A stretch of DNA of 64,000 nucleotides from the human T2T-CHM13v2.0 reference genome, Homo sapiens. This document shows positions 1 through 64,000 of this stretch, one piece after another. The first letter of the stretch is position 1; each line of letters starts with the position of its first letter. The stretch lies in the NCBI GenBank assembly GCA_009914755.4, contig CP086569.2, positions 11,808,001 through 11,872,000 of the forward strand, in the 5' to 3' direction. The notes under the pieces were generated by a model. It saw nothing but the letters and a program-made list of their open reading frames with translations. It searched no databases and was not told where the DNA came from. A program made the position numbers and the translations under genes.

Positions 1-2395
1 GTATGGAATGGACTGCCATAGAACGGACTGCAGTGTAATGGATTGAATTCTAATTCATTCAAATGGAATGGAATTGAATGGAATGGAATCCAATGGAATG
101 GATAGGATTGTACTGGAATGGAATAGCATGGAATGCAACGGAGTGGAATGGAGTTGAATGAAGTGGAATGGAATCGATTGGAATGGAATCAAATGGAATG
201 GACGGGAATGGAATGGACTGGAAGAGAACAGACTCGAATTTAATAGATTGCAATGTAATTGATTCAAAGGGAATGGAATCGAATGGAATGTAATAAAATT
301 GAAGGGATTTGAGTTCAATGCAATGGAATAGAATGGAATGCAAAGGAAAGGAAAGGTACGGAGTGAAATCGAGTGTAATGGAATCGAATGGAATGAAATG
401 GAATGGAATGGACTCAAAAGAAATGGACGAGGGACAAAACGGAATCGAACTGATTGGAATCGAACGGAACGGAATGGAATGGAATGGTCTCCATTGGATC
501 GGAGTAGAACGGACTGGAATGGAATGGAATGAAATGGAATGGAAAGGAATAGAATGGAATGGAATGGAATGGAATGGAATGGAAGGTAATGGAAAGATAT
601 CGAACGGATTGGAAAGGAATGGAATGGACCCTAATGGAATGGAATGGAATTCAACAGAAACGAATGGAATGGACTGGAGTGAAATGGAGTCGAATGTAAT
701 TGACTGGAGTGGAATGGACTCGAAAGGAATGGACTCGAATAGAATGGACTGGAATGGATTGTACTCAAATGGAGTGGAAAGGAATAAAATGGATTGCACC
801 AGATTGGAATGGAACAGAATGTAATGGAATGGAATGGAATGCAATGGAATGGCTCCAATGGAATGGAGTCGAATGCAATGGAACAGAAAGGAAAGGAATT
901 GAATGGAATTGAAAGTAATAGAACAAAATGGAGTGCAAAGGAAAGATATTGAATGGAATGAATCGAAAAGAAATCGAATGGAATGGACAAGAATGGAATG
1001 GAATAGAATGGAATAGACTGGCGTGCAATGAAAACGAATGGAACGGAAACGAATGGAATGCAATGGAAAGGAATGGAGTAGAATAAATACTATGGAATGG
1101 AATGGAGGCGAAAGGAAAAGAATGGATTGGAATGTCACCGAATGGAAAGATATGGAATGGAAAGGAATGGATACGAATGGAATGGAATAGAAAGGAACGG
1201 AAAGGTAAAGAATGGAATGGAATCGGATAGAATGGAATGCAATGTAATGGAGTCGAATGGAAAATAATCGTGTAGAATGATATCGAATGGAATGGAATGG
1301 AATGGAATGGACTCGAATGGAATGTACTCAAATGGATTAGAATAGAATGGAATGGAACTAAACGTAATGAACTCGAATGGAATGGACACAAATAGAATGG
1401 AAGAGAAGGGAATGGTATTGAATGGAATTTATTCGAAAAGAGTGGAATTCAATGGAATGCAGCAGTGTGGCATGGAATCAAATGGAATGGAATCGAATGG
1501 AATGGACCCGAGTGGAATGGACTCACATAGAACAGCCTCGAATGTAATGGATGACAATGTATTAGATTCGAAAGGACTGAAATCGAATGGAATGTAATCA
1601 AGTAGAACGGAATTGAATGCATGGAATGGCATAGAAAGTAACGCAATGGAATGGAATAGACTGGAATGGAATGGAATCGGATGGAATGTAATGAAATGTA
1701 ATGGAAGGAATGCCATGGAATGGAATGGAATGGAAGGCAATGGGACGGTGTATAATGGAGTGCAATGGATTTCAGTGGAATGTAGTCAAAAGGAAAGAAA
1801 TAGAATGGAATTCAATATAATGGAATGGCATCCAATGGCAAGGAATGGAGCGGACTCCAATGGAAACGACATGAAAGGAATATAATAAAATGGAATGGCA
1901 TTGAACGAAATGGAATGCAATGGAGTTAAAAGGTAAAATATCGAATGGAAAAGAATTGAATGGACTCGAAAGGAATATAATGGAATGGAATGGACTCGAA
2001 TGGAATGTACTAGAGTTGAATGGAATCGAATGGAATGGAAAACAATGGAAAGGAAAGGAAGGGAATTGAAAGGAAAGGAATAGAATGGAATGGAATCGGA
2101 TGGAACGGAATTGAATGGAATGGAAACTAAAGGAATAGAATAGAAAGGAATCGCATTGAATGGAATGGAATAGAATGGAATCAGATGGAACAGAAAGGAA
2201 TGGAATAGAATCGAATGGAATGGCATCGAATGGATGGAATGGAATGTAATGGAATGGAATAGAAAGGAATGGAATGGACTCGAATGGAATGTACTCAAAT
2301 GGAATAGAATAGAATGGAATGGAAGTAAATATAATGGACTCGAATGGAATGCATTGGAATAAATTGGAATTGAGTGTATTGGATTCGAATGGAAA

Positions 2396-2442
2396 GGAAT
2401 GGAATGGAATGGAATGGAATGGAATGGAATGGAATGGAATGG
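2396..2442. repeat. Example of a pure (GGAAT)n core tract (9 perfect pentamers) inside the HOR. Tracts like this are the substrates for slippage and unequal exchange.
   Basis: ggaatggaatggaatggaatggaatggaatggaatggaatggaat with no substitutions. Homologous tracts vary in copy number between HOR copies. Confidence 0.85.
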
Positions 2443-2498
2443 ATTCGAATGGAATGGAATCGAATGGAATGGAACGAATTGGAATGTAATTGAATGGA

Positions 2499-2545
2499 GT
2501 CAAAAACAGTAGAAAGAAATAAAGTTTCATCGAAAGATATCGAAT
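2499..2545. other. Conserved non-pentameric island (gtcaaaaacagtagaaagaaataaagtttcatcgaaagatatcg), present once per HOR.
   Basis: The same string recurs at about 8108, 13725, 19322, 24931, 30528 and 31188 (duplicated copy), and at 36768, 42318, 47918, 53458 and 58978, with 1-3 substitutions. Confidence 0.8.
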
Positions 2546-3100
2546 GGAATTGAATGGAATGTACGCGAATGGAATGGACTGGAATGCAATGGAGTGACAT
2601 GTAACGGAATCGAAAGGAATGGAATCCAATGAAATGGAATTGAATGGAATAGAAATGAATAGAATGGAATGGAGATTAACGGAAAGATATTAAAATAATG
2701 GAATGGAATTGAGTGGACACGAATGGAATGGACTGGAATGGAAAGGACTCAAATGAAAACGAGCGCAATAGAATGGACTCGAATGGAATGGATTGGAGTG
2801 GAATGGTCTCGAATGGATTGGAAAGGAATGGAATGGAAAGGAATAGAATGGAATGTAATCAAATGGAACGAAATGGAATGGAATGGATTCGACTGGAGCA
2901 GAATTGAATGGAGTGGATTTGAATGGAATGGAATGCAATCGAATGGAATGGACACGAATCGAATAGAATGAAATGTAATGGCATAGAATGGAATGGAATG
3001 GAATGGAATGGAATGGAATGGAACGGAATTGAATGTCATGGAATGGAATGGCATGGCATGGAATGGAATGGAATGGAATGGAATGAAATGGATTGGAATG

Positions 3101-3175
3101 GGATGGGCCCAAAAGTAATAGACTCAAATAAAAGGGACTCAAAGAGAATGAAGTGGAAAGAAACGGTCTCGAATG
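3101..3175. other. Conserved diverged island containing the GGGCCC (ApaI) site. It occurs once per HOR and is a useful physical landmark.
   Basis: ggatgggcccaaaagtaatagactcaaataaaagggactcaaagagaatgaagtggaaagaaacggtctcgaatg. GGGCCC was seen once per HOR copy, for example at 3105, about 8715, about 14325 and about 31797. Confidence 0.75.
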
Positions 3176-4280
3176 TAATTTATTCGAATAGAATGATATT
3201 GAATGGAATGCAATAGTATGGAATGGTATCGAATAGAATGGAATAGAATGGAATGGAATGGAACGGAATGGAGTGCAATTGAACGGACTCAAATGAAATA
3301 AATTGCAATATAATTGATTCAAATGGAATGGAATCGAATAGAATGTAAACAAATGGAATGGAAGGCAATGCAATGGAAAGGAATCGAATGAAATGGAATA
3401 AATGGAATGGAATGGAATGGAAAGGACGCGAATATATTGGACTGTTAAGGAAAGGTGTCAAATCGAATTTATTCCAATAGAATGGAATCGAATGGAATGC
3501 AATACTATTGAATCGAATCGAATGGAATGGAATTGAATGGAATGGACAGGAATGGAATGAACTGGAAGTGAATGGACAGGAACGTAATATATTGCAATGT
3601 AATTTATTCAAATGGAATGGAATGCAATCGAATGGAATGGACTCGATTGGAATGGACTGGAGTGGAATGGATTCAAATGGAATGGCAAGGAATGGAATGG
3701 AATGGAATGGAAAGCAAAGGAATCTACTGGAATAGAATCGAACGGAACAGAAAGGAATGGAATGGAATGGAGTGGAATGGACTCGAATGGAATGTATTCG
3801 AATGTAATGGACCTAAAAAGGAATGGAATCCAATGGAATGGAATTGAATGGAATCAAAAGGAATAGAAAGGCATCGAGTGTAATTGAATGATATCGAAAG
3901 GAAGGGAATGGAATGAACTCGAATGGAATGCACTGGAATGGAATGGACTCGATCAGAACGGACTGGAGAGGAATGTACACAAATGGAATGGAAACGAATG
4001 GAATGGAATGAAATGGAATGGAATGAAATGGAATTGAAAGGAAGGGAATCAAATGGAATGGAATGGAATGGATTGGAATAGAATGGATTCAAATAAAATA
4101 GAATCGATGGGAATGGTATTGAATGAAAGGGACTTGAATGGAATGGAAAGCAATGGAAGATATTGGAATCGAATGGCATCGAATGAAATGGAATGGAACG
4201 GAATGGAACGGAACCGAATGGAATGGAATGGACTCAAATGTAATGGACACCAATGGAATCGACTGAAATATAATAGTGTC

Positions 4281-4310
4281 GAAAGGAATGGCCTCGAGCG
4301 GAATTTATTT
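4281..4310. other. Conserved island with GGCC plus the CTCGAG (XhoI) site and the haplotype-diagnostic CpG variant cgagCGg versus cgagTGg.
   Basis: Copies 1-7 read aatggcctcgagcggaatttatttg. Copies 8-11 read aatggcctcgagtggaatttatttg, for example at 44091-44110. Confidence 0.75.
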
Positions 4311-5607
4311 GAATAGAATGGAATCAAATGGAATACAATACCATTGAATGGAATCGAATGGAATGGAATCGAATGGAATGGAATCAAATGGAATGGAACG
4401 GAATTCAATATAATGGAGTAGAATGGAATGCATTGGAAAGGAGCAGAGTGGAATCAAGTGGAATGGAATCGAGTGGAATGGAATCGAGTGGAATGGAATC
4501 AATGGGAACAAAATCGAATTGAATGGACTTGAATGGAATTGACTCGAAAGGAATTGACTCGAAAGGAATGGACTGGAACAAAAAGGAATCAAATGGACAG
4601 GAATGGGATGGAATGGACACGAATGGAATGGAGTCAAATGCAAACGCATCGAATGGAATGGATTGAAATGGAATGCAATGGAATGGAACAGAAAGGAAGA
4701 GAATGGAATTGAGAGTAATGGAAAGATATCGATTGGAATGAAATGGAATGGAAAGGAATTGAATGGAAAGGAATGGAGTGGAAAGAAATGGATTGGAATG
4801 GAATGGTCTCCAATGGAATGGACTGGAGTGGAATGGAATCGAATGGAATGAAAAGAATGGAACGGAATGGAACGGAAAGGAATAGAATGTTATGGAATCC
4901 GATTGGACAGAATGGAATGGAATGGACTTTCATGAAATGGAGTCGAATAGAGTGTCATCAAAAGGAATGGAATGGAATGGAGTGGACTCAAAAGGAATGG
5001 ACTCGAAAGGAATGGAGTCGAACCAAATTGAATCAAATGGATTGGAGTCGAACAGAATGGAATGGAATGAAATGTACTCGACTGGAGTAGAGAGGAATGT
5101 AAAGGAATAGAATGGAATGTAATCAAATGGATTGCAAGTGAATGGAATCAAAAATAATAGAAAGGAATGGAGTGTAAAGGGATGATATTGAATATAATGG
5201 AATGGAATGGAATTTAATGGAATGGAGACGAAGGAATGGACAGGAATGTAATGGACTCCAATGGAATGGAATGGATCAAAATGGATTTGAACAGATTGGA
5301 ATCGAACGGAATGGAATGCAACGGCATGGAATGGACTCGAATGGAGAAGAGACAAATGGAATGGAAACGAATTCAATGGAATTGAAAAGAATAGGATGGA
5401 ATGGCGTGTAATGGTAAGATACTAAATGGAATGGAATTGAATGGAATGGAATGGACCCAAATGTAATGCACTCGAAAGGAATATACTCAAATAGAATGGA
5501 ATCGAAAGGAAAGGTCTCAAATGGAATTTATTCAATACAATGGAATCGAATGGAATGCAATAGAATGGAATGGAATCGAATGTAATGGAATCAAATAGAA
5601 TGGACCA

Positions 5608-8600
5608 GTATGGAATGGACTGCCATAGAACGGACTGCAGTGTAATGGATTGAATTCTAATTCATTCAAATGGAATGGAATTGAATGGAATGGAATCCAA
5701 TGGAATGGATAGGATTGTACTGGAATGGAATAGCATGGAATGCAACGGAGTGGAATGGAGTTGAATGAAGTGGAATGGAATCGATTGGAATGGAATCAAA
5801 TGGAATGGACGGGAATGGAATGGACTGGAAGAGAACAGACTCGAATTTAATGGATTGCAATGTAATTGATTCAAAGGGAATGGAATCGAATGGAATGTAA
5901 TAAAATTGAAGGGATTTGAGTTCAATGCAATGGAATAGAATGGAATGCAAAGGAAAGGAAAGGTACGGAGTGAAATCGAGTGTAATGGAATCGAATGGAA
6001 TGAAATGGAATGGAATGGACTCAAAAGAAATGGACGAGGGACAAAACGGAATCGAACTGATTGGAATCGAACGGAACGGAATGGAATGGAATGGTCTCCA
6101 TTGGATCGGAGTAGAACGGACTGGAATGGAATGGAATGAAATGGAATGGAAAGGAATAGAATGGAATGGAATGGAATGGAATGGAATGGAAGGTAATGGA
6201 AAGATATCGAACGGATTGGAAAGGAATGGAATGGACCCTAATGGAATGGAATGGAATTCAACAGAAACGAATGGAATGGACTGGAGTGAAATGGAGTCGA
6301 ATGTAATTGACTGGAGTGGAATGGACTCGAAAGGAATGGACTCGAATAGAATGGACTGGAATGGATTGTACTCAAATGGAGTGGAAAGGAATAAAATGGA
6401 TTGCACCAGATTGGAATGGAACAGAATGTAATGGAATGGAATGGAATGCAATGGAATGGCTCCAATGGAATGGAGTCGAATGCAATGGAACAGAAAGGAA
6501 AGGAATTGAATGGAATTGAAAGTAATAGAACAAAATGGAGTGCAAAGGAAAGATATTGAATGGAATGAATCGAAAAGAAATCGAATGGAATGGACAAGAA
6601 TGGAATGGAATAGAATGGAATAGACTGGCGTGCAATGAAAACGAATGGAATGGAAACGAATTTAATGCAATGGAAAGGAATGGAGTAGAATAAATACTAT
6701 GGAATGGAATGGAGGCGAAAGGAAAAGAATGGATTGGAATGTCACCGAATGGAAAGATATGGAATGGAAAGGAATGGATACGAATGGAATGGAATAGAAA
6801 GGAACGGAAAGGTAAAGAATGGAATGGAATCGGATAGAATGGAATGCAATGTAATGGAGTCGAATGGAAAATAATCGTGTAGAATGATATCGAATGGAAT
6901 GGAATGGAATGGAATGGACTCGAATGGAATGTACTCAAATGGATTAGAATAGAATGGAATGGAACTAAACGTAATGAACTCGAATGGAATGGACACAAAT
7001 AGAATGGAAGAGAAAGGAATGGTATTGAATGGAATTTATTCGAATAGAGTGGAATTCAATGGAATGCAACAGTGTGGCATGGAATCAAATGGAATGGAAT
7101 CGAATGGAATGGACCCGAGTGGAATGGACTCACATAGAACAGCCTCGAATGTAATGGATGACAATGTATTAGATTCGAAAGGACTGAAATCGAATGGAAT
7201 GTAATCAAGTAGAACGGAATTGAATGCATGGAATGGCATAGAAAGTAACGCAATGGAATGGAATAGACTGGAATGGAATGGAATCGGATGGAATGTAATG
7301 AAATGTAATGGAAGGAATGCCATGGAATGGAATGGAATGGAATGCAATGGGACGGTGTATAATGGAGTGCAATGGATTTCAGTGGAATGTAGTCAAAAGG
7401 AAAGAAAGAGAATGGAATTCAATATAATGGAATGGCATCCAATGGCAAGGAATGGAGCGGACTCCAATGGAAACGACATGAAAGGAATATAATAAAATGG
7501 AATGGCATTGAACGAAATGGAATGTAATGGAGTTAAAAGGTAAAATATCGAATGGAAAAGAATTGAATGGACTCGAAAGGAATATAATGGAATGGAATGG
7601 ACTCGAATGGAATGTACTAGAGTTGAATGGAATCGAATGGAATGGAAAACAATGGAAAGGAAAGGAAGGGAATTGAAAGGAAAGGAATAGAATGGAATGG
7701 AATCGGATGGAACGGAATTGAATGGAATGGAAACTAAAGGAATAGAATAGAAAGGAATCGCATTGAATGGAATGGAATAGAATGGAATCAGATGGAACAG
7801 AAAGGAATGGAATAGAATCGAATGGAATGGCATCGAATGGATGGAATGAAATGTAATGGAATGGAATAGAAAGGAATGGAATGGACTCGAATGGAATGTC
7901 CTCAAATGGAATAGAATAGAATGGAATGGAAGTAAATATAATGGACTCGAATGGAATGCATTGGAATAAATTGGAATTGAGTGTATTGGATTCGAATGGA
8001 AAGGAATGGAATGGAATGGAATGGAATGGAATGGAATGGAATGGAATGGAATGGATTCGAATGGAATGGAATCGAATGGAATGGAACGAATTGGAATGTA
8101 ATTGAATGGAGTCAAAAACAGTAGAAAGAAATAAAGTTTCATCGAAAGATATCGAATGGAATTGAATGGAATGTACGCGAATGGAATGGACTGTAATGGA
8201 ATGGAGTGACATGTAACGGAATCGAAAGGAATGGAATCCAATGAAATGGAATTGAATGGAATAGAAATGAATAGAATGGAATGGAGATTAACGGAAAGAT
8301 ATTAAAATAATGGAATGGAATTGAGTGGACACGAATGGAATGGACTGGAATGGAAAGGACTCAAATGAAAACGAGCGCATTAGAATGGACTCGAATGGAA
8401 TGGATTGGAGTGGAATGGTCTCGAATGGATTGGAAAGGAATGGAATGGAAAGGAATAGAATGGAATGTAATCAAATGGAACGAAATGGAATGGAATGGAT
8501 TCGACTGGAGCAGAATTGAATGGAGTGGATTTGAATGGAATGGAATGCAATCGAATGGAATGGACACGAATCGAATAGAATGAAATGAAATGGCATAGAA

Positions 8601-11224
8601 TGGAATGGAATGGAATGGAATGGAATGGAATGGAATGGAACGGAATTGAATGTCATGGAATGGAATGGCATGGCATGGAATGGAATGGAATGGAATGGAA
8701 TGAAATGGATTGGAATGGGATGGGCCCAAAAGTAATAGACTCAAATAAAAGGGACTCAAAGAGAATGAAGTGGAAAGAAACGGTCTCGAATGTAATTTAT
8801 TCGAATAGAATGATATTGAATGGAATGCAATAGTATGGAATGGTATCGAATAGAATGGAATAGAATGGAATGGAATGGAACGGAATGGAGTGCAATTGAA
8901 CGGACTCAAATGCAATAAATTGCAATATAATTGATTCAAATGGAATGGAATCGAATAGAATGTAAACAAATGGAATGGAAGGCAATGCAATGGAAAGGAA
9001 TCGAATGAAATGGAATAAATGGAATGGAATGGAATGGAAAGGACGCGAATATATTGGACTGTTAAGGAAAGGTGTCAAATCGAATTTATTCCAATAGAAT
9101 GGAATCGAATGGAATGCAATACTATTGAATCGAATCGAATGGAATGGAATTGAATGGAATGGACAGGAATGGAATGAACTGGAAGTGAATGGACAGGAAC
9201 GTAATATATTGCAATGTAATTTATTCAAATGGAATGGAATGCAATCGAATGGAATGGACTCGATTGGAATGGACTGGAGTGGAATGGATTCAAATGGAAT
9301 GGCAAGGAATGGAATGGAATGGAATGGAAAGCAAAGGAATCTACTGGAATAGAATCGAACGGAACAGAAAGGAATGGAATGGAATGGAGTGGAATGGACT
9401 CGAATGGAATGTATTCGAATGTAATGGACCTAAAAAGGAATGGAATCCAATGGAATGGAATTGAATGGAATCAAAAGGAATAGAAAGGCATCGAGTGTAA
9501 TTGAATGATATCGAAAGGAAGGGAATGGAATGAACTCGAATGGAATGCACTGGAATGGAATGGACTCGATCAGAACGGACTGGAGAGGAATGTACACAAA
9601 TGGAATGGAAACGAATGGAATGGAATGAAATGGAATGGAATGAAATGGAATTGAAAGGAAGGGAATCAAATGGAATGGAATGGAATGGATTGGAATAGAA
9701 TGGATTCAAATAAAATAGAATCGATGGGAATGGTATTGAATGAAAGGGACTTGAATGGAATGGAAAGCAATGGAAGATATTGGAATCGAATGGCATCGAA
9801 TGAAATGGAATGGAACGGAATGGAACGGAACCGAATGGAATGGAATGGACTCAAATGTAATGGACACCAATGGAATCGACTGAAATATAATAGTGTCGAA
9901 AGGAATGGCCTCGAGCGGAATTTATTTGAATAGAATGGAATCAAATGGAATACAATACCATTGAATGGAATCGAATGGAATGGAATCGAATGGAATGGAA
10001 TCAAATGGAATGGAACGGAATTCAATATAATGGAGTAGAATGGAATGCATTGGAAAGGAGCAGAGTGGAATCAAGTGGAATGGAATCGAGTGGAATGGAA
10101 TCGAGTGGAATGGAATCAATGGGAACAAAATCGAATTGAATGGACTTGAATGGAATTGACTCGAAAGGAATTGACTCGAAAGAAATGGACTGGAACAAAA
10201 AGGAATCAAATGGACAGGAATGGGATGGAATGGACACGAATGGAATGGAGTCAAATGCAAACGCATCGAATGGAATGGATTGAAATGGAATGCAATGGAA
10301 TGGAACAGAAAGGAAGAGAATGGAATTGAGAGTAATGGAAAGATATCGATTGGAATGAAATGGAATGGAAATGAATTGAATGGAAAGGAATGGAGTGGAA
10401 AGAAATGGATTGGAATGGAATGGTCTCCAATGGAATGGACTGGAGTGGAATGGAATCGAATGGAATGAAAAGAATGGAACGGAATGGAATGGAAAGGAAT
10501 AGAATGTTATGGAATCCGATTGGACAGAATGGAATGGAATGGAGTTTCATGAAATGGAGTCGAATAGAGTGTCATCAAAAGGAATGGAATGGAATGGAGT
10601 GGACTCAAAAGGAATGGACTCGAAAGGAATGGAGTCCAACCAAATTGAATCAAATGGATTGGAGTCGAACAGAATGGAATGGAATGAAATGTACTCGACT
10701 GGAGTAGAGAGGAATGTAAAGGAATAGAATGGAATGTAATCAAATGGATTGCAAGTGAATGGAATCAAAAATAATAGAAAGGAATGGAGTGTAAAGGGAT
10801 GATATTGAATATAATGGAATGGAATGGAATTTAATGGAATGGAGACGAAGGAATGGACAGGAATGTAATGGACTCCAATGGAATGGAATGGATCAAAATG
10901 GATTTGAACAGATTGGAATCGAACGGAATGGAATGCAACGGCATGGAATGGACTCGAATGGAGAAGAGACAAATGGAATGGAAACGAATTCAATGGAATT
11001 GAAAAGAATAGGATGGAATGGCGTGTAATGGTAAGATACTAAATGGAATGGAATTGAATGGAATGGAATGGACCCAAATGTAATGCACTCGAAAGGAATA
11101 TACTCAAATAGAACGGAATCGAAAGGAAAGGTCTCAAATGGAATTTATTCAATACAATGGAATCGAATGGAATGCAACAGAATGGAATGGAATCGAATGT
11201 AATGGAATCAAATAGAATGGACCA
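5608..11224. repeat. HOR copy 2, 5617 bp, variant B.
   Basis: The anchor recurs at 5608 and 11225. B-type markers are the 261-aa ORF at 5666..6451, MHSIPFHS at 7036..7347, QKERKRMEF at 7220..7492 and NENERIR at 8325..8519. Confidence 0.85.
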
Positions 11225-34000: not shown

Positions 34001-34261
34001 AAGAGACAAATGGAATGGAAACGAATTCAATGGAATTGAAAAGAATAGGATGGAATGGCGTGTAATGGTAAGATACTAAATGGAATGGAATTGAATGGAA
34101 TGTAATGGACCCAAATTTAATGCACTCGAAAGGAATATACTCAAATAGAATGGAATCGAAAGGAAAGGTCTCAAATGGAATTTATTCAATACAATGGAAT
34201 CGAATGGAATGCAATAGAATGGAATGGAATCGAATATAATGGAATCAAATAGAATGGACCA
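28041..34261. repeat. HOR copy 6, 6221 bp, C-like in its 5' part and resembling the downstream haplotype in its 3' part. It contains a 660-bp internal duplication.
   Basis: The 5' part matches copy 5 (246-aa ORF at 28691..29431). From about 30.4 kb onward it shares variants with copies 7-12: NEMERIR rather than NENERIR at 31402..31596, ARNVMEW at 32202..32414, and the CpG gain ggaaCGtact at about 30322. The extra length comes from the duplication listed separately. Confidence 0.8.
30471..31790. repeat. Internal tandem duplication inside HOR copy 6. Copy 1 is about 30471-31130 and copy 2 about 31131-31790, that is 2 x about 660 bp.
   Basis: The string attcgaatggaatggaatcgaatggaatggaacgaatt...gtcaaaaacagtagaaa...tacgcgaatggaatggactggaatggaatggagtgacatgtaacgg...taaaataatggaatggaattgagtggacacgaatgg occurs at 30471 and again at 31131. 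The track shows the MDTNGMDWNGKDSNE... ORF twice, at 30743 and 31402, 659 bp apart. Both breakpoints sit in pure (GGAATGG)n runs at 30431-30470 and 31091-31130. Confidence 0.85.
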
Positions 34262-53900: not shown

Positions 53901-56454
53901 AATGGAATGGACACGAATCGAATAGAATGAAATGAAATGGCATAGAATGGAATGGAATGGAATGGAATGGAATGGAATGGAATGGAATGGAATGGAATGG
54001 AATGGAATGGAATGGAATGGCATGGAATGGAATGACATGGCATGGCATGGCATGGAATGGAATGGAATGAAATGGATTGGAATGAGATGGGCCCAAAAGT
54101 AATAGACTCAAATAAAAAGGACTCAAATAGAATGAACTGGAAAGAAACGGTCTCGAATGTAATTTATTCGAATAGAATGATATTGAATGGAATGCAACAG
54201 TATGGAATGTTATCGAATAGAATGGAATAGAATGGAAGGGAATGGAACGGAATGGAGTGCAATTGAACGGACTCAAATGCAATAAATTGCAATATAATTG
54301 ATTCAAATGGAATGGAATCGAATAGAATGTAAACAAATGGAATGGAAGGCAATGCAATGGAAAGGATTCGAATGAAATGGAATAAATGGAATGGAATGGA
54401 ATGGAAAGGACGCGAATATATTGGACTGTTAAGGAAAGGTGTCAAATCGAATTTATTCCAATAGAATGGAATCGAATGGAATGCAATACTATTGAATCGA
54501 ATCGAATGGAATGGAATTGAATGGAATGGACAGGAATTGGAATGAACTGGAAGTGAATGGACAGGAACGTAATATATTGCAATGTAATTTATTCAAATGG
54601 AATGGAATGCAATCGAATGGAATGGACTCGATTGGAATGGACTGGATTGGAATGGACTCAAATGGAATGACAACGAATGTAATGGAATGGAATGGAAAGC
54701 AAAGGAATCTACTGGAATAGAATCGAACGGAACAGAAAGGAATGGAATGGAACGGAGTGGAATGGACTCGAATGGAATGTATTCGAATGTAATGGACCTA
54801 AAAAGGAATGGAATCCAATGGAATGGAATTGAATGGAATCAAAAGGAATAGAAAGGAATAGAGTGTAATTGAATATCGAAAGGAAGGGAATGGAATGAAC
54901 TCGAATGGAATGCACTGGAATGAAATGGACTCGATGAGAACGGACTGGAGAGGAATGTACACAAAAGGAATGGAAACGAATGGAATGGAATGAAATGGAA
55001 TTGAAAGGAACGGAATCAAATGGAATGGAATGGAATGGAATGGATGGGAATAGGAGGGATTCAAATAAAATAGAATCGATGGGAATGGTATTGAATGAAA
55101 GGGACTTGAATGGAATGCAAAGCAATGGAAGATATTGGAATCGAATGGCATCGAATGAAATGGAATGGAACGGAATGGAACGGAACCGAATGGAATGGAA
55201 TGGACTCAAATGTAATGGACACCAATGGAATCGACTGAAATATAATAGTGTCGAAAGGAATGGCCTCGAGTGGAATTTATTTGAATAGAATGGAATCAAA
55301 TGGAATACAATACCATTGAATGGAATCGAATGGAATGGAATCGAATGGAATGTAATCAAATGGAATGGAACGGAATTCAATATAAAGGAGTAGAATGGAA
55401 TGCATTGGAAAGGAGCAGAGTGGAATCAAGTGGAATGGAATCGAGTGGAATGGAATCAATGGGAACAAAATCGAATTGAATGGACTTGAATGGAATTGAC
55501 TCGAAAGGAATGGACTGGAACAAAAAGGAATCAAATGGACAGGAATGGGATGGAATGGACCCGAATGGAATGGAGTCAAATGCAAACGCATCAAATGGAA
55601 TGGATTGAAATGGAATGCAATGGAATGGAACAGAAAGGAAGTGAATGGAATGGTCTCCAATGGAATGGACTGGAGTGGAATGGAATCGAATGGAATGAAA
55701 AGAATGGAACGGAATGGAACGGAAAGGAATAGAATGTTATGGAATCCGATTGGACAGAATGGAATGGAATGGAGTTTCATGAAATGGAGTCGAATAGAGT
55801 GGCATCAAAAGGAATGGAATGGAATGGAGTGGACTCAAAAGGAATGGACTCGAAAGGAATGGAGTCCAACAAAACTGATTCAAATGGATTGAAGTCGAAC
55901 AGAATGGAATGGAATGGAATGAACTCGACTGGAGTAGAGAGGAATGTAAAGGAATAGAATGGAATGTAATCAAATGGATTGCAAGTGAATGGAATCAAAA
56001 ATAATAGAAAGGAATGGAGTGTAAAGGGATGATATTGAATATAATGGAATGGAATGGAATTTAATGGAATGGAGACGAAGGAATGGACAGGAATGTAATG
56101 GACTCCAATGGAATGGAATGGATCAAAATGGATTTGAACAGATTGGAATCGAACGGAATGGAATGCAATGGAATGGAATGGACTCGAATGGAGAAGAGAC
56201 AAATGGAATGGAAACGAATTCAATGGAATTGAAAAGAATAGGATGGAATGGCGTGTAATGGTAAGATACTAAGTGGAATGGAATTGAATGGAATGTAATG
56301 GACCCAAATTTAATGCACTCGAAAGGAATATACTCAAATAGAATGGAATCGAAAGGAAAGGTCTCAAATGGAATTTATTCAATACAATGGAATCGAATGG
56401 AATGCAATAGAATGGAATGGAATCGAATGTAATGGAATCAAATAGAATGGACCA
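50960..56454. repeat. HOR copy 10, 5495 bp, variant D, with a 95-bp deletion and a +25-bp (GGAAT)n tract expansion.
   Basis: The 446-aa ORF at 51018..52358 is identical in structure to that of copy 8. The deletion junction lies at about 55641-55650. The pure GGAAT run at 53941-54020 is 5 pentamers longer than in copy 8. Confidence 0.85.
55636..55655. other. Junction of a 95-bp deletion private to HOR copy 10.
   Basis: Copy 10 reads cagaaaggaagtgaatggaatggtctccaatgg. Copies 8 and 9 have about 108 bp (gagaatggaattgagagtaatggaaagatatcgattgg...aaatggattggaatggaatgg) between cagaaaggaa and tctccaatgg. In the track, two ORFs fuse into the 167-aa ORF at 55277..55780. Confidence 0.8.
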
Positions 56455-59400
56455 GATTGGAATGGACTGCCATAGAACGGACTGCAGTGTAATGGATTGA
56501 ATTCTAAATCATTCAAATGGAATGGAATTGAATGGAATGGAATCCAATGGAATGGATAGGATTGTACTGGAATGGAATAGCATGGAATGCAACGGAGTGG
56601 AATGGAGTTGAATGAAGTGGAATGGAATCGATTGGAATGGAATCAAATGGAATGGACGGGAATGGAAGGGACTGGAAGAGAACAGACTCGAATTTAATGG
56701 ATTGCAATGTAATTGATTCAAATGGAATGGAATCGAATGGAATGTAATAAAATTGAAGGGATTTGAGTTCAATGCAATGGAGTAGAATGGAATGCAAAGG
56801 AAAGGAAAGGAACGGAGTGAAATCGAGTGTAATGGAATCGAATGGAATGAAATGGAATGGAATGGACTCAAAAGAAATGGACGAGGGACAAAACGGAATC
56901 GAACTGATTGGAATCGAACGGAACGGAATGGAATGGAATGGTCTCCATTGGATCGGAGTAGAACGGACTGGAATGGAATGGAATGAAATGGAATGGAAAG
57001 GAATAGAATGGAATGGAATGGAATGGAATGGAATGGAAGGTAATTGAAAGATATCGAACGGATTGGAAAGGAATGGAATGGACCCTAATGGAATGGAATG
57101 GAATTCAACAGAAACGAATGGAATGGACTGGAGTGAAATGGAGTCGAATGTAATTGACTGGAGTGGAATGGACTCGAAAGGAATGGACTCGAATAGAATG
57201 GACTGGAATGGATTGTACTCGAATGGAGTGGAAAGGAATAAAATGGATTCCACCAGATTGGAATGGAACAGAATGTAATGGAATGGAATGGAATGCAATG
57301 GAATAGCTCCAATGGAATGGAGTCGAATGCAATGGAACAGAAAGGAAAGGAATTGAATGGAATTGAAAGGAATAGAACAAAATGGAGTGCAAAGGAAAGA
57401 TATCGAATGGAATGGATCGAAAAGAAATCGAATGGAATGGACAGGAATGGAATGGAATAGAATGGAATAGACTGGCGTGCAATCAAAACGAATGGAATGG
57501 AAACGAATGGAATACAATGGAAAGGAATGGAGTAGAATAAATACTATGGAATGGAATGGAGGCGAAAGGAAAAGAATGGATTGGAATGTCGCCGAATGGA
57601 AAGCTATGGAATGGAAAGGAATGGATACGAATGGAATGGAATAGAAAGGAACGGAAAGGTAAAGAATGGAATGGAATCGGATAGAATGGAATGCAATGTA
57701 ATGGAGTCGAATGGAAAATAATCGAGTAGAATGATATCGAACGGACTGGAATTTAATAGAATGGAATGGAATGGAATGGACTCGAATGGAATGTACTCAA
57801 ATGGATTAGAATAGAATGGAGTGGAACTAAACGTAATGAACTCGAATGGAATGGACACAAATAGAATGGAAGAGAAAGGAATGGTATTGAATGGAATTTA
57901 TTCGAATAGAGTGGAATTCAATGGAATGCAACAGTGTGGCATGGAATCAAATGGAATGGAATCGAATGGAATGGACCCGAGTGGAATGGACTCACATAGA
58001 ACAGCCTCGAATGTAATGGATGACAATGTATTAGATTCGAAAGGACTGAAATCGAATGGAATGTAATCAAGTAGAACGGAATTGAATGCATGGAATGGCA
58101 TAGAAAGTAACGCAATGGAATGGAATAGACTGGAATGGAATGGAATCGGATGGAATGTAATGAAATGTAATGGAAGGAATGCCATGGAATGGAATGGAAT
58201 GGAATGCAATGGGACGGTGTATAATGGAGTGCAATGGATTTCAGTGGAATGTAGTCAAAATGAAAGAAATAGAATGGAATTCAATATAATGGAATGGCAT
58301 CCAATGGCAAGGAATGGAGCGGACTCCAATGGAAACGACATGAAAGGAATATAATATAATGGAGTGGAATATAATATAATATAATATAATATAATATAAT
58401 ATAATATAATATAATATAATGCAATGGAGTTAAAAGGTAAAATATCGAATGGAAAAGAATTGAATGGACTCGAAAGGAATATAATGGAATGGAATGGACT
58501 CGAATGGAATGTACTAGAGTTGAATGGAATCGAATGGAATGGAAAACAATGCAAGGGAAAGGAAAGGAATTGAAAGGAAAGGAATAGAATGGAATGGAAT
58601 CGGATGGAACGGAATTGAATGGAATGGAAACTAAAGGAATAGAATAGAAAGGAATCGCATTGAATTGAATGGAATGGAATGGAATCAGATGGAACAGAAA
58701 GGAATGGAATAGAATCGAATGGAATGGCATCGAATGGATGGAATGGAATGGAATGGAATGGAATAGAAAGGAATGGAATGGACTCGAATGGAATGTACTC
58801 AAATGGAATAGAATAGAATGGAATGGAAGTAAATATAATGGACTCGAATGGAATGCATTGGAATAAATTGGAATTGAGTTTATTGGATTCGAATGGAAAG
58901 GAATGGAATGGAATGGAATGGAATGGATTCGAATGGAATGGAATCGAATGGAATGGAACGAATTGGAATGTAATTGAATGGAGTCAAAAACAGTAGAAAG
59001 AAATAAAGTTTCATCGAATGATATCGAATGGAATTGAATGGAATGTACGCGAATGGAATGGAGTGACATGTAACGGAATCGAAAGGAATGGAATCCAATG
59101 AAATGGAATTGAATGGTATAGAAATGTATAGAATGGAATGGAGATTAATGGAAAGATATTAAAATAATGGAATGGAATTGAGTGGACACGAATGGAATGG
59201 ACTGGAATGGAAAGGACTCGAATGAAATGGAGCGCATTAGAATGGACTCGAATGGAATGGATTGGAGTGGAATGGTCTCAAATGGATTGGAAAGGAATGG
59301 AATGGAAAGGAATAGAATGGAATGTAATCAAACGGAACGAAATTGAATGGAATGGATTCGACTGGAGCAGAATTGAATGGAGTGGAATTGAATGGAATGG

Positions 59401-62039
59401 AATGCAATCGAATGGAATGGACACGAATCGAATAGAATGAAATGAAATGGCATAGAATGGAATGGAATGGAATGGAATGGAATGGAATGGAATGGAATGG
59501 AATGGAATGGCATGGAATGGAATGACATGGCATGGCATGGCATGGAATGGAATGGAATGAAATTGATTGGAATGGGATGGGCCCAAAAGTAATAGACTCC
59601 AATAAAAAGGACTCAAATAGAATGAACTGGAAAGAAACGGTCTCGAATGTAATTTATTCGAATAGAATGATATTGAATGGAATGCAACAGTATGGAATGT
59701 TATCGAATAGAATGGAATAGAATGGAAGGGAATGGAACGGAATGGAGTGCAATTGAACGGACTCAAATGCAATAAATTGCAATATAATTGATTCAAATGG
59801 AATGGAATCGAATAGAATGTAAACAAATGGAATGGAAGGCAATGCAATGGAAAGGAATCGAATGAAATGGAATAAATGGAATGGAATGGAATGGAAAGGA
59901 CGCGAATATATTGGACTGTTAAGGAAAGGTGTCAAATCGAATTTATTCCAATAGAATGGAATCGAATGGAATGCAATACTATTGAATCGAATCGAATGCA
60001 ATGGAATTGAATGGAATGGACAGGAATTGGAATGAACTGGAAGTGAATGGACAGGAACGTAATATATTGCAATGTAATTTATTCAAATGGAATGGAATGC
60101 AATCGAATGGAATGGACTCGATTGGAATGGACTGGAGTGGAATGGACTCAAATGGAATGGCAAGGAATGGAATGGAATGGAATGGAAAGCAAAGGAATCT
60201 ACTGGAATAGAATCGAACGGAACAGAAAGGAATGGAATGGAACGGAGTGGAATGGACTCGAATGGAATGTATTCGAATGTAATGGACCTAAAAAGGAATG
60301 GAATCCAATGGAATGGAATTGAATGGAATCAAAAGGAATAGAAAGGAATAGAGTGTAATTGAATATCGAAAGGAAGGGAATGGAATGAACTCGAATGGAA
60401 TGCACTGGAATGAAATGGACTCGATCAGAACGGACTGGAGAGGAATGTACACAAAAGGAATGGAAACGAATGGAATGGAATGAAATGGAATTGAAAGGAA
60501 CGGAATCAAATGGAATGGAATGGAATGGAATGGATTGGAATAGAATGGATTCAAATAAAATAGAATCGATGGGAATGGTATTGAATGAAAGGGACTTGAA
60601 TGGAATGCAAAGCAATGGAAGATATTGGAATCGAATGGCATCGAATGAAATGGAATGGAACGGAATGGAACGGAACCGAATGGAATGGAATGGACTCAAA
60701 TGTAATGGACACCAATGGAATCGACTGAAATATAATAGTGTCGAAAGGAATGGCCTCGAGTGGAATTTATTTGAATAGAATGGAATCAAATGGAATACAA
60801 TACCATTGAATGGAATCGAATGGAATGGAATCGAATGGAATGTAATCAAATGGAATGGAACGGAATTCAATATAAAGGAGTAGAATGGAATGCATTGGAA
60901 AGGAGCAGAGTGGAATCAAGTGGAATGGAATCGAGTGGAATGGAATCAATGGGAACAAAATCGAATTGAATGGACTTGAATGGAATTGACTCGAAAGGAA
61001 TGGACTGGAACAAAAAGGAATCAAATGGACAGGAATGGGATGGAATGGACACGAATGGAATGGAGTCAAATGCAAACGCATCGAATGGAATGGATTGAAA
61101 TGGAATGCAATGGAATGGAACAGAAAGGAAGAGAATGGAATTGAGAGTAATGGAAAGATATCGATTGGAATGAAATGGAATGGAAAGGAATTGAATGGAA
61201 AGGAATGGAGTGGAAAGAAATGGATTGGAATGGAATGGTCTCCAATGGAATGGACTGGAGTGGAATGGAATCGAATGGAATGAAAAGAATGGAACGGAAT
61301 GGAACGGAAAGGAATAGAATGTTATGGAATCAGATTGGACAGAATGGAATGGAATGGAGTTTCATGAAATGGAGTCGAATAGAGTGGCATCAAAAGGAAT
61401 GGAATGGAATGGAGTGGACTCAAAAGGAATGGACTCGAAAGGAATGGAGTCGAACCAAACTGATTCAACTGGATTGAATTCGAACAGAATGGAATGGAAT
61501 GGAATGAACTCGACTGGAGTAGAGAGGAATGTAAAGGAATAGAATGGAATGTAATCAAATGGATTGCAAGTGAATGGAATCAAAAATAATAGAAAGGAAT
61601 GGAGTGTAAAGGGATGATATTGAATATAATGGAATGGAATGGAATTTAATGGAATGCAGACGAAGGAATGGACAGGAATGTAATGGACTCCAATGGAATG
61701 GAATGGATCAAAATGGATTTGAACAGATTGGAATCGAACGGAATGGAATGCAATGGAATGGAATGGACTCGAATGGAGAAGAGACAAATGGAATGGAAAC
61801 GAATTCAATGGAATTGAAAAGAATAGGATGGAATGGCGTGTAATGGTAAGATACTAAATGGAATGGAATTGAATGGAATGTAATGGACCCAAATGTAATG
61901 CACTCGAAAGGAATATACTCAAATAGAATGGAATCGAAAGGAAAGGTCTCAAATGGAATTTATTCAATACAATGGAATCGAATGGAATGCAATAGAATGG
62001 AATGGAATCGAATGTAATGGAATCAAATAGAATGGACCA
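56455..62039. repeat. HOR copy 11, 5585 bp, variant E.
   Basis: The 334-aa ORF at 56513..57517 is identical in structure to that of copy 9. There is an (ATAAT)10 tract at 58371-58420. Confidence 0.85.
58371..58420. repeat. (ATAAT)10 microsatellite embedded in HOR copy 11.
   Basis: Ten perfect ataat units sit at the same HOR position as 47296-47340. This tract is one unit longer than the one in copy 9. Confidence 0.9.
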
Positions 62040-64000
62040 GATTGGAATGGACTGCCATAGAACGGACTGCAGTGTAATGGATTGAATTCTAAATCATTCA
62101 AATGGAATGGAATTGAATGGAATGGAATCCAATGGAATGGATAGGATTGTACTGGAATGGAATAGCATGGAATGCAACGGAGTGGAATGGAGTTGAATGA
62201 AGTGGAATGGAATCGATTGGAATGGAATCAAATGGAATGGACGGGAATGGAATGGACTGGAAGAGAACAGACTCGAATTTAATGGATTGCACTGTAATTG
62301 ATTCAAATGGAAAGGAATCGAATGGAATGTAATAAAATTGAAGGGATTTGAGTTCAATGCAATGGAGTAGAATGGAATGCAAAGGAAAGGAAAGGTACGG
62401 AGTGAAATCGAGTTTAATGGAATCGAATGGAATGAAATGGAATGGAATGGACTCAAAAGAAATGGAAGAGGGACAAAACGGAATCGAACTGATTGGAATC
62501 GAACGGAACGGAATGGAATGGAATGGTCTCCATTGGATCGGAGTAGAACGGACTGGAATGGAATGGAATGAAATGGAATGGAAAGGAATAGAATGGAATG
62601 GAATGGAATGGAATGGAATGGAAGGTAATGGAAAGATATCGAACGGATTGGAAAGGAATGGAATGGACCCTAATGGAATGGAATGGAATTCAACAGAAAC
62701 GAATGGAATAGACTGGAGTGAAATGGAGTCGAATGTAATTGACTGTAGTGTAATGGACTCGAAAGGAATGGACTCGAATAGAATGGACTGGAATGGATTG
62801 TACTCGAATGGAGTGGAAAGGAATAAAATGGATTCCACCAGATTGGATTGGAACAGAATGTAATGGAATGGAATGGAATGCAATGGAATAGCTCCAATAG
62901 AATGGAGTCGAATGCAATGGAACAGAAAGGAAAGGGATTGAATGGAATTGAAAGGAATAGAACAAAATGGAGTGCAAAGGAAAGATATCGAATGGAATGG
63001 ATCGAAAAGAAATCGAATGGAATGGACAGGAATGGAATGGAATTGAATGGAATAGACTGGCGTGCAATGAAAACGAATGGAATGGAAACGAATGGAATGC
63101 AATGGAAAGGAATGGAGTAGAATAAATACTATGGAATGGAATGGAGGCGAAAGGAAAAGAATGGATTGGAATGTCACCGAATGGAAAGATATGGAATGGA
63201 AAGGAATGGATACGAATGGAATGGAATAGAAAGGAACGGAAAGGTAAAGAATGGAATGGAATCGGATAGAATGGAATGCAATGTAATGGAGTCGAATGGA
63301 AAATAATCGTGTAGAATGATATCGAATGGAATGGAATTGAATGGAATGGAATGGAATGGACTCGAATGGAATGTACTCAAATGGATTAGAATAGAATGGA
63401 ATGGAACTAAACGTAATGAACTCGAATGGAATGGACACAAATAGAATGGAAGAGAAAGGAATGGTATTGAATGGAATTTATTCGAATAGAGTGGAATTGA
63501 ATGGAATGCAACAGTGTGGCATGGAATCAAATGGAATGGAATCGAATGGAATGGACCCGAGTGGAATGGACTCACATAGAACAGCCTCGAATGTAATGGA
63601 TGACAATGTATTAGATTCGAAAGGACTGAAATCGAATGGAATGTAATCAAGTAGAACGGAATTGAATGCATGGAATGGCATAGAAAGTAACGCAATGGAA
63701 TGGAATAGACTGGAATGGAATGGAATCGGATGGAATGTAATGAAATGTAATGGAAGGAATGCCATGGAATGGAATGGAATGGAATGCAATGGGACGGTGT
63801 ATAATGGAGTGCAATGGATTTCAGTGGAATGTAGTCAAAAGGAAAGAAATAGAATGGAATTCAATATAATGGAATGGCATCCAATGGCAAGGAATGGAGC
63901 GGACTCCAATGGAAACGACATGAAAGGAATATAATATAATGGAATGGCATTGAACGAAATGGAACGCAATGGAGTTAAAAGGTAAAATATCGAATGGAAA
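62040..64000. repeat. HOR copy 12, partial (1961 bp in this window), D-like.
   Basis: The 446-aa ORF at 62098..63438 is the D marker. The copy is truncated by the window end. Confidence 0.8.

What the first reader, a model, noticed from the sequence alone, without database searches (positions are those of the whole stretch)
1..64000. The window is a satellite III array with a higher-order repeat of about 5.6 kb, and it is not gene space
There are 11 complete copies and 1 partial copy of a roughly 5.6-kb unit. Copies within a domain are near-identical (identical ORF-track proteins), and copies across the two domains differ somewhat more. The window has no unique sequence, no transposable-element insertion and no credible gene. 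The best-known HSat3 HOR I recall is DYZ1 on Yq12, at about 3.56 kb, and that length does not match this 5.6-kb unit. The array is therefore probably an autosomal or acrocentric HSat3 block or an uncharacterised HSat3 subfamily, but I cannot assign it.
Basis: partly seen in the sequence, partly recalled or inferred. Interest (0 to 1): 0.5.

Follow-up and report, generated by a model that had tools for sequence, protein, structure and literature searches.

The report
Y-chromosome satellite III repeat array

Summary
The window is wall-to-wall (GGAAT)n-derived satellite in one orientation. It holds 11 complete units of 5,495-6,221 nt and one partial unit. Units are 98.1-99.96% identical to each other, but similarity inside a unit is only about 70%. 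ApaI, PstI, NcoI and XhoI each cut once per unit. There is no transposable element, no unique sequence, no Rfam hit and no credible gene. The second half is not one uniform domain: two unit variants alternate with a period of about 11.15 kb, and copies 6 and 7 are mosaics.

The chromosome guess is not supported. Of the 14 subfamily-specific 24-mers in Table 1 of Altemose 2014, only the HSat3A3 marker matches. It matches exactly, once per complete unit, at the same phase. HSat3A3 is Y-specific (372 kb on Y, at most 6 kb on any other chromosome) and lies in proximal Yq beside the centromere (hg19 BAC RP11-295P22). It is not DYZ1, and not an autosomal or uncharacterised block. Thirteen metagenome contigs carry the same unit, and one collapses to a 5,564-nt period.

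I could not align the window to a human reference, so species and chromosome rest on one marker plus the literature. This is an already known kind of sequence and of low interest.

The parts
1..64000 (+). Uninterrupted satellite III array, with the GGAAT strand on + and a single orientation
   Evidence: uniform GC and skew; GGAAT 3,967 versus ATTCC 17; TRF period 5, AATGG
4..28043 (+). Units c1-c5 (starts 4, 5611, 11228, 16830, 22437; 5,602-5,617 nt), the homogeneous block A. They are 99.55-99.96% identical; c1 resembles c3, and c2 resembles c4 and c5
28044..34264 (+). Unit c6, 6,221 nt, a mosaic. It carries A-type alleles up to about 30283, mixed alleles in the middle, and B-type alleles from about 33141. 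The domain boundary lies inside this unit
30422..31791 (+). 659-nt internal tandem duplication in c6 (30422-31132 repeated at +659, 22 mismatches in 711). It lies between pure (GGAAT)n tracts at 30436, 31095 and 31679
34265..39817 (+). Unit c7, 5,553 nt. It is mostly B-type with A-type patches and has 37 private substitutions
39818..64000 (+). Units c8-c11 (starts 39818, 45383, 50963, 56458) and partial c12 (62043-64000), block B. Two variants alternate (c8/c10/c12 versus c9/c11), giving a super-period of about 11.15 kb
5156..5179 (-). HSat3A3-specific 24-mer CTTTACACTCCATTCCTTTCTATT (reverse complement on +). It recurs at 10773, 16375, 21982, 27589, 33810, 39363, 44928, 50508, 56003 and 61588
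3105..3110 (.). ApaI site GGGCCC, one per unit. It recurs at 8722, 14324, 19931, 25538, 31799, 37360, 42919, 48499, 54089 and 59579
47293..47337 (+). (AATAT)9 expansion private to the c9/c11 variant; its partner is (AATAT)10 at 58368-58417
2396..3019 (+). Pair of pure (GGAAT)6-14 tracts about 594 nt apart, present in nearly every unit (c7 has only the second at 6 or more repeats, and in c11 the first has shrunk below 6 repeats). They are the main length-variable sites

Best explanation
The window is a stretch of human pericentromeric satellite III of subfamily HSat3A3. This is the Y-chromosome-specific HSat3 block in proximal Yq, next to the DYZ3 centromere, in the region that Y-chromosome papers label HSat3/DYZ17.

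Shown here: the window is a head-to-tail array of nested tandem repeat units of about 5.6 kb. Each unit consists of about 1,100 degenerate GGAAT pentamers, and the array encodes nothing.

Inferred mechanism: the array is kept homogeneous and reshaped by unequal sister-chromatid or intrachromatid exchange and by gene conversion on the non-recombining Y. These events act at two scales. In unit register they produce local blocks of near-identical units and two-unit (about 11.2 kb) duplications. In pentamer register they produce indels in multiples of 5. Exchange between the two pure (GGAAT)n tracts inside a unit would produce the 659-nt duplication in copy 6.

Inferred from the literature: as chromatin it is constitutive heterochromatin. 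The TEAD-type motif GGAATG occurs 44 times per kb, which would let it act as the kind of transcription-factor binding platform proposed for HSat3 in general. It has no GAAnnTTC heat-shock element at all, so I do not predict it to be an HSF1-driven stress-body site like 9q12.
For: Satellite III nature and unit structure.

Subfamily: only the HSat3A3 marker among the 14 in Table 1 of PMC4022460 matches exactly, 11 times, once per complete unit and in phase. The HSat3B-type CAACCCGAGT motif and the HSat2-type ATCATC motif are both absent.

Y specificity and map position, from PMC4022460: the text calls HSat3A3 'specific to the Y chromosome'. Table S7 gives 372 kb [343-399] on Y and at most 6 kb on any other chromosome. 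Table S8 assigns hg19 BAC RP11-295P22, Y:13543063-13748578, to 3A3 with 94 kb of HSat, class 'cen'. HSat3 and DYZ17 arrays lie next to DYZ3 on Yq.

Independent copies: 13 metagenome contigs match the unit over their full length. All 10 contigs longer than 3 kb carry the marker. Contig L007 has a unique 64-nt terminal overlap, which gives a 5,564-nt period. Some of the differences the contigs share are alleles that also segregate between the window's two blocks.

Exchange mechanism: allele-sharing patterns are c9=c11 at 32 sites, c8=c10 at 19, c1=c3 at 9, and c1-5 against the rest at 22. Copies c6 and c7 are mosaics. Nearly all indels are multiples of 5. The duplication in c6 lies between pure GGAAT tracts.

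Motifs: GGAATG occurs 2,833 times and GAAnnTTC 0 times. TEAD enrichment on HSat3 is reported in PMC11526998.

Not coding and not bacterial or viral.
Against: Only 1 of the 6,554 HSat3A3-specific 24-mers could be tested, because the stored copy of the list is cut before 3A3.

No human or ape reference genome was available, so neither species nor chromosome was tested by alignment.

The metagenome contigs differ from the window consensus by about 1.5-4%, and in one 1-kb stretch they share about 14 differences at sites that are invariant in the window. I read this as within-array variation, but it would also fit a different haplogroup or a closely related species. The hosts of those metagenomes are unknown.

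No paper I could search gives the HSat3A3 unit length. I cannot tell whether this block is what Hallast et al. call 'DYZ17' or the adjacent 'HSat3' array.

The exchange mechanism and the chromatin roles are inferred, not shown.
Confidence: 0.8

Rival explanations
1. It is an HSat3A3-like array of a non-human great ape (Y or elsewhere), not human.
For: No reference alignment was possible. The metagenome contigs, presumably human host DNA, are only 94-98% identical at best, and they share differences at sites that are invariant in the window. A single 24-mer could survive 1-2% divergence between species.
Against: The marker comes from a human genome (HuRef) and is exact in 11 of 11 complete units. 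The contigs share 42-75% of their 31-mers with the window, and they carry alleles that segregate between the window's own blocks, which suggests one shared repeat pool. The window's two blocks differ from each other by 1.8%, about as much as they differ from the contigs.
Confidence: 0.07
2. It is a human autosomal or acrocentric HSat3 block, or a subfamily not yet characterised.
For: HSat3 occurs on many chromosomes. The T2T centromere preprint says 3A3 is 'almost entirely' on chrY, which is not the same as exclusively. Table S7 gives 6 kb of 3A3 on chr7.
Against: The markers of all acrocentric and autosomal subfamilies (A1, A2, A4, A5, B1-B5) have 0 exact hits, while the 3A3 marker hits every complete unit. 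The abundance of 3A3 off the Y is at most 6 kb, less than this 64-kb window.
Confidence: 0.05
3. It is DYZ1 (HSat3A6), the Yq12 satellite, in a variant form.
For: DYZ1 is also HSat3 on the Y.
Against: The HSat3A6 marker has 0 hits with at most one mismatch. The DYZ1 unit is about 3.5-3.6 kb, against 5.6 kb here. No HSat1B/DYZ2 blocks are interspersed in 64 kb.
Confidence: 0.01
4. The long ORFs encode pentapeptide-repeat proteins.
For: A 446-aa ORF on the minus strand scores 43 bits against PF13599 Pentapeptide_4, above the curated cut-off of 38.
Against: Any 5-nt repeat read in any frame repeats every 5 codons, here as IPFHS. (ATTCC)n has no stop codon in any frame. The ORFs overlap each other in several frames, mostly start at TTG or GTG, and change length from copy to copy. 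Three ORF products tried are not on record anywhere.
Confidence: 0.005
5. The near-identical neighbouring copies are an assembly artefact (a mis-expanded or mis-collapsed repeat) rather than the true arrangement.
For: c4 and c5 differ by only 2 substitutions. Satellite arrays are hard to assemble.
Against: Every copy has its own combination of variants and indels, and these form a coherent nested pattern. The unit itself is seen in independent samples.
Confidence: 0.03

Closest known systems
HSat3A3 (Altemose et al. 2014, PMC4022460), the Y-specific HSat3 subfamily in proximal Yq (hg19 BAC RP11-295P22; the HSat3/DYZ17 region of Y-chromosome papers)
   Same: [quoted passage not shown] It is a pure (GGAAT)n-derived array. 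A long, well homogenised unit fits the high share of specific 24-mers reported for 3A3 (0.45 of windows).
   Different: No difference was found. The unit length (about 5.6 kb), the two-unit super-period and the mosaic boundary are not given in any paper I could read. Whether this block is the one labelled 'DYZ17' or the adjacent 'HSat3' array is unresolved.
DYZ1 = HSat3A6, Yq12
   Same: It is HSat3, on the Y, and organised as a kb-scale nested tandem repeat of CATTC pentamers.
   Different: Its unit is about 3.5-3.6 kb, not 5.6 kb. Its marker 24-mer is absent. DYZ1 alternates with DYZ2/HSat1B blocks, and none are present here.
HSat3B5 of 9q12, the largest HSat3 array and the classic source of stress-induced SatIII RNA
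   Same: Same satellite family, with the same pentamer ancestry and the same dense GGAATG/TEAD-type motifs.
   Different: The B5 marker is absent, and so is the CAACCCGAGT 10-mer that I recall as typical of HSat3B. There are no inversions in 64 kb, whereas the chr9 array has more than 200 inversion breakpoints. No GAAnnTTC heat-shock element is present.
DYZ3 alpha-satellite HOR of the Y centromere
   Same: It is the neighbouring array on the Y. From my own memory, not tested here, its higher-order unit (about 5.7 kb) is of nearly the same length.
   Different: Its monomer is 171 bp and unrelated in sequence. The window has a 5-nt period only. The similar unit length is a coincidence.

Membership tests
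Human satellite III (HSat3) | Derived from a (CATTC)n / (GGAAT)n pentamer repeat | tested here: met
   31% of bases lie in exact GGAAT and 69% within one mismatch. TRF gives period 5, AATGG.
Human satellite III (HSat3) | Lacks the longer HSat2-type unit (ATCATC-containing motifs and HSat2 markers) | tested here: met
   ATCATC occurs 0 times. The three HSat2 subfamily 24-mers have 0 hits with up to 2 mismatches.
Human satellite III (HSat3) | Comes from a human pericentromeric or heterochromatic region | not testable with these tools
   No human reference is available. The indirect evidence is the marker derived from HuRef and the metagenome contigs.
HSat3A3 | Exact matches to HSat3A3-specific 24-mers and none to those of other subfamilies (the assignment rule of Altemose 2014, Table S8) | tested here: met
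   The one available marker has 11 exact hits, one per complete unit. The 13 markers of other subfamilies have 0 exact hits. The other 6,553 3A3 24-mers were not available.
HSat3A3 | Located on the Y chromosome, proximal Yq | not testable with these tools
   Literature only: Table S7 gives 372 kb on Y and at most 6 kb on any other chromosome, and Table S8 lists RP11-295P22.
DYZ1 / HSat3A6 | Unit of about 3.56 kb and HSat3A6-specific 24-mers | tested here: not met
   The period is 5.5-5.6 kb. The marker has 0 hits with at most 1 mismatch.
HSat3B subfamilies | B1-B5 marker 24-mers, and the CAACCCGAGT-type 10-mer (the latter from my memory) | tested here: not met
   There are 0 exact hits for B1-B5 and 0 hits for the 10-mer with at most 1 mismatch.
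Higher-order repeat in the strict (alpha-satellite) sense | Unit built from a discrete number of monomers of similar length | tested here: inconclusive
   The only sub-period is the 5-nt pentamer. Internal self-similarity is about 70% at all offsets, with no intermediate monomer. The T2T authors would call this a nested tandem repeat.
Pentapeptide-repeat proteins (PF13599) | A real coding gene with a conserved frame | tested here: not met
   The ORFs overlap, their lengths vary between copies, and the 5-codon period follows from the 5-nt repeat. No identical product is on record.

The most novel reading that the evidence does not exclude
The window is an HSat3A3-type array that does not lie on the human Y, for example in a non-human great ape or on a human autosome. 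That would mean the subfamily held to be Y-specific has a large relative elsewhere. A milder version is that the 5.6-kb unit, its two-unit super-period and the mosaic block boundary are undescribed details of the known Y array.
Probability: 0.1. Interest if true: 0.3.

Novelty: already known. Interest (0 to 1): 0.08.

Why it matters
It matters little for discovery. Satellite III is a classical satellite, its HSat3A3 subfamily was defined in 2014, and the Y pericentromeric arrays have been fully assembled since 2023.

The practical value is in annotation. The window should be masked as satellite. Its 141 ORFs of at least 110 aa, and an above-threshold Pfam 'pentapeptide repeat' hit, are artefacts of a 5-nt repeat. 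The same unit turns up in public metagenome assemblies, most likely as host contamination.

The copy-by-copy variant map is a clean small example of how a satellite on a non-recombining chromosome is homogenised. It shows a homogeneous block, an alternating two-unit block, a mosaic junction and pentamer-register indels.

Tried and rejected
1. Plain lag autocorrelation shows only 5-nt multiples and a weak peak at 11,209, because indels shift the register. k-mer spacing was needed to see the 5.6-kb period.
2. Exact look-ups of three window ORF products in the public gene collection found nothing.
3. The 26-mer anchor and the HSat3A3 24-mer gave no match in GTDB bacterial and archaeal genomes or in IMG/VR. 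Megablast of one unit against phages and plasmids gave no match. The window is therefore not bacterial or viral, and I found no contamination in those sets.
4. The literature gave no HSat3A3/DYZ17 unit length. The Altemose 2022 review and the Nature T2T-Y paper are not held. 'HSat3A3' occurs in only two held papers. No held paper pairs HSat3 with 5.6 kb. A search for RP11-295P22, Yq11.1 and satellite 3 together found nothing. The supplements of the two Y preprints add nothing. The ape sex-chromosome paper does not mention HSat3.
5. The stored list of subfamily-specific 24-mers is cut before 3A3, so only the single Table 1 marker could be used.
6. Internal sub-repeats of the unit were sought by self-BLAST. 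Only the 70% pentamer background appeared.
7. I ran no further search on the ORFs, because they are low-complexity artefacts.
8. I did not attempt absolute dating of the duplications, because mutation and conversion rates in this array are unknown.
Full report
**What is there.** The window has the same composition from end to end. GC is 0.36-0.39 and GC skew is +0.54 to +0.65 in every 2-kb bin. The + strand is 71% purine. GGAAT occurs 3,967 times and its complement ATTCC only 17 times, so the array has a single orientation with no inversion. 31% of bases lie in exact GGAAT pentamers and 69% in pentamers with at most one mismatch. TRF describes a whole unit as period 5, consensus AATGG, with 63% matches. 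This is a (GGAAT)n/(CATTC)n-derived satellite.

**The long period.** Plain autocorrelation is blurred by indels. The spacing between successive identical 20-, 32- and 48-mers piles up at 5.45-5.65 kb, with minor peaks at 6.2 kb and 11.05-11.2 kb. Anchor 40-mers that occur 11-12 times place unit starts at 4, 5611, 11228, 16830, 22437, 28044, 34265, 39818, 45383, 50963, 56458 and 62043. Unit lengths are 5607, 5617, 5602, 5607, 5607, 6221, 5553, 5565, 5580, 5495 and 5585 nt, followed by a 1,958-nt partial unit. Units are 98.1-99.96% identical to each other. Any two parts of one unit are only about 70% alike, which is the pentamer background, and there is no intermediate sub-repeat. PstI, NcoI, XhoI and PciI also cut once per unit (PciI twice in copy 6, because of its internal duplication), and KpnI, BamHI and HindIII do not cut at all.

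**Fine structure.**
- Copies 1-5 form a tight block at 99.55-99.96% identity. Within it c1 resembles c3, and c2 resembles c4 and c5.
- The second half is not one homogeneous domain. c8 resembles c10 (99.74%) and c9 resembles c11 (99.77%), but c8 versus c9 is only 98.7%, and c12 goes with c8/c10. Two unit variants therefore alternate, which explains the 11.1-kb k-mer peak.
- Allele-sharing patterns agree: 32 sites are shared only by c9 and c11, 19 only by c8 and c10, 9 only by c1 and c3, and 22 separate c1-5 from the rest. There are 37 sites private to c7 and 27 private to c6.
- At 109 columns the c1-5 and c8-11 blocks are fixed for different states. At these columns c6 is A-type up to about 30283, mixed in the middle and B-type from about 33141. 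c7 is mostly B-type with A-type patches. The block boundary thus lies inside a mosaic unit.
- Almost all indels among copies are multiples of 5 nt.
- Nearly every unit has two pure (GGAAT)6-14 tracts about 594 nt apart, and these are the main length-variable sites. Copy 6 has three such tracts, and its 659-nt internal duplication (22 mismatches in 711) lies between them.
- The c9/c11 variant carries an (AATAT)9-10 expansion.

**Not gene space.**
- The only pentamer-poor segments are the two AATAT runs, so there is no TE or unique insertion.
- Rfam finds nothing at gathering scores.
- There are 141 ORFs of at least 110 aa. Most are on the minus strand. They recur with the unit, overlap in several frames, mostly start at TTG or GTG, and change length from copy to copy. 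They translate to IPFHS-like strings. This is expected, because (ATTCC)n and (GGAAT)n have no stop codon in any frame.
- Two ORFs hit Pfam Pentapeptide_4, one above the curated cut-off at 43 versus 38 bits. This is an artefact: a 5-nt repeat read as codons repeats every five residues.
- Three ORF products are not on record in the public gene collection.

**Which satellite III.** Table 1 of Altemose et al. [quoted passage not shown] Only the HSat3A3 marker matches the window exactly. It hits 11 times, once in every complete unit, at the same phase. The other 13 markers have no exact hit. The HSat3B-type 10-mer and the HSat2-type motifs are absent.

[quoted passage not shown] Its flow-sorted-chromosome estimates give 372 kb [343-399] on Y and at most 6 kb on every other chromosome. 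In hg19 it assigns 94 kb of HSat in BAC RP11-295P22 (Y:13,543,063-13,748,578, class 'cen') to 3A3. That clone lies between 3A4 fragments on the centromere side and a 3A2 clone on the distal side. No previously published clone matched the subfamily.

The Y-chromosome assembly papers place an HSat3 array of 372-488 kb and then a DYZ17 array of 0.86-1.74 Mb directly distal to the DYZ3 alpha satellite, and they show HSat3 FISH signal at DYZ17. I cannot tell which of these two labels covers HSat3A3. DYZ1 is excluded: its unit is about 3.5-3.6 kb and its marker is absent.

**Independent copies.**
- A 26-mer from the unit finds 13 contigs in public metagenome assemblies. It finds none in bacterial or archaeal genomes or in viral contigs.
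- Megablast of a unit finds nothing in phage or plasmid records.
- The contigs align to the unit consensus over their whole length at 77-98% identity.
- All ten contigs longer than 3 kb carry the HSat3A3 marker, and 42-75% of their 31-mers occur in the window.
- Contig L007 (5,628 nt) has a unique 64-nt exact terminal overlap. It is a collapsed tandem repeat with a period of 5,564 nt in an unrelated sample.
- The contigs differ from the window by a background of 1.5-3% plus badly diverged patches. In one 1-kb stretch, four contigs share 21 differences from the window consensus. Five of these are alleles that also segregate between the window's two blocks.
- I read this as one repeat pool in which the window is a local variant cluster. 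It also leaves some room for another haplogroup or a closely related species. The hosts of the metagenomes are unknown, and host contamination is my inference.

**How it most likely works.** What is shown is the pattern: local blocks of near-identical units, two-unit duplications, a mosaic junction, pentamer-register indels, and a duplication bounded by pure pentamer tracts. What I infer is the standard satellite dynamic on a non-recombining chromosome. Unequal sister-chromatid or intrachromatid exchange and gene conversion amplify and homogenise units locally, and slippage or misaligned exchange acts at pure (GGAAT)n tracts. The T2T-Y preprint reaches the same conclusion for Yq12.

The functional role is inferred from the literature. 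HSat3 is constitutive heterochromatin, and HSat3 arrays have been proposed as megabase-scale TEAD and other transcription-factor binding platforms (PMC11526998). The window has 44 GGAATG motifs per kb. It has no GAAnnTTC dimer at all, so I do not predict canonical HSF1 binding here.

**Comparison and novelty.** The window passes every membership test I could run for HSat3 and for HSat3A3, and it fails the tests for DYZ1, HSat3B and HSat2. The kb-scale unit is better called a nested tandem repeat than a HOR. The array type, the subfamily and its location are already known. The unit length and the block structure are details I could not find in the papers available to me, but they are probably contained in the T2T annotations.

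**Verdict.** Interest is low.

Noticed in passing
window 39873-41213 (-) and 59-1138 (-): Minus-strand ORFs of 446 and 359 aa hit Pfam PF13599 Pentapeptide_4. The first scores 43 bits, above the curated cut-off of 38. This is a false positive caused by the 5-nt DNA repeat being read as a 5-residue period (IPFHS). Automatic annotation of satellite III could mislabel such ORFs as pentapeptide-repeat proteins.
   Followed up: yes
L001-L013 (metagenome contigs, e.g. OJKS01000224.1 = L007): Thirteen public metagenome assemblies contain contigs of 1.4-9 kb made entirely of this satellite unit. They are most likely host (male human) DNA assembled as if microbial. L007 is a collapsed unit with a 64-nt terminal overlap and a period of 5,564 nt.
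   Followed up: partly
L002, L006, L008, L009, L010: Several of those contigs are longer than one unit and contain kb-scale patches that are only about 60-80% identical to the window's unit (for example L008 over consensus positions 3000-4400). These may be older, diverged variants of the same array, junctions to other HSat3, or chimeric assemblies.
   Followed up: no
window 30422-31791: Copy 6 carries a 659-nt internal tandem duplication whose two halves differ by 3%. It lies between pure (GGAAT)n tracts, which suggests unequal exchange between the two tracts of different units rather than a recent in-place duplication.
   Followed up: partly
window 47293-47337 and 58368-58417: (AATAT)9 and (AATAT)10 microsatellite expansions occur at the same unit position in copies 9 and 11 only. 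This is a new simple repeat growing inside one unit variant.
   Followed up: partly
whole window: Among 210 biallelic substitution columns, transversions (119) outnumber transitions (91), and 35 of the transitions are in CpG context. CpG observed/expected is 1.14, because CGAAT is a common pentamer variant. The excess of transversions is unusual for mammalian point mutation. It may reflect conversion between pentamer variants or local misalignment.
   Followed up: no
whole window: Short-range autocorrelation is higher at lags 15 and 30 (0.659 and 0.642) than at 5, 10 or 20 (0.635, 0.634 and 0.624). This hints at a weak 15-nt (three-pentamer) super-period.
   Followed up: no
whole window: The sequence GAAnnTTC, the core of a heat-shock element, is completely absent, while GGAATG (TEAD-type) occurs 2,833 times. 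If HSF1 needs inverted nGAAn units, this Y array should not nucleate stress bodies in the way 9q12 does.
   Followed up: no
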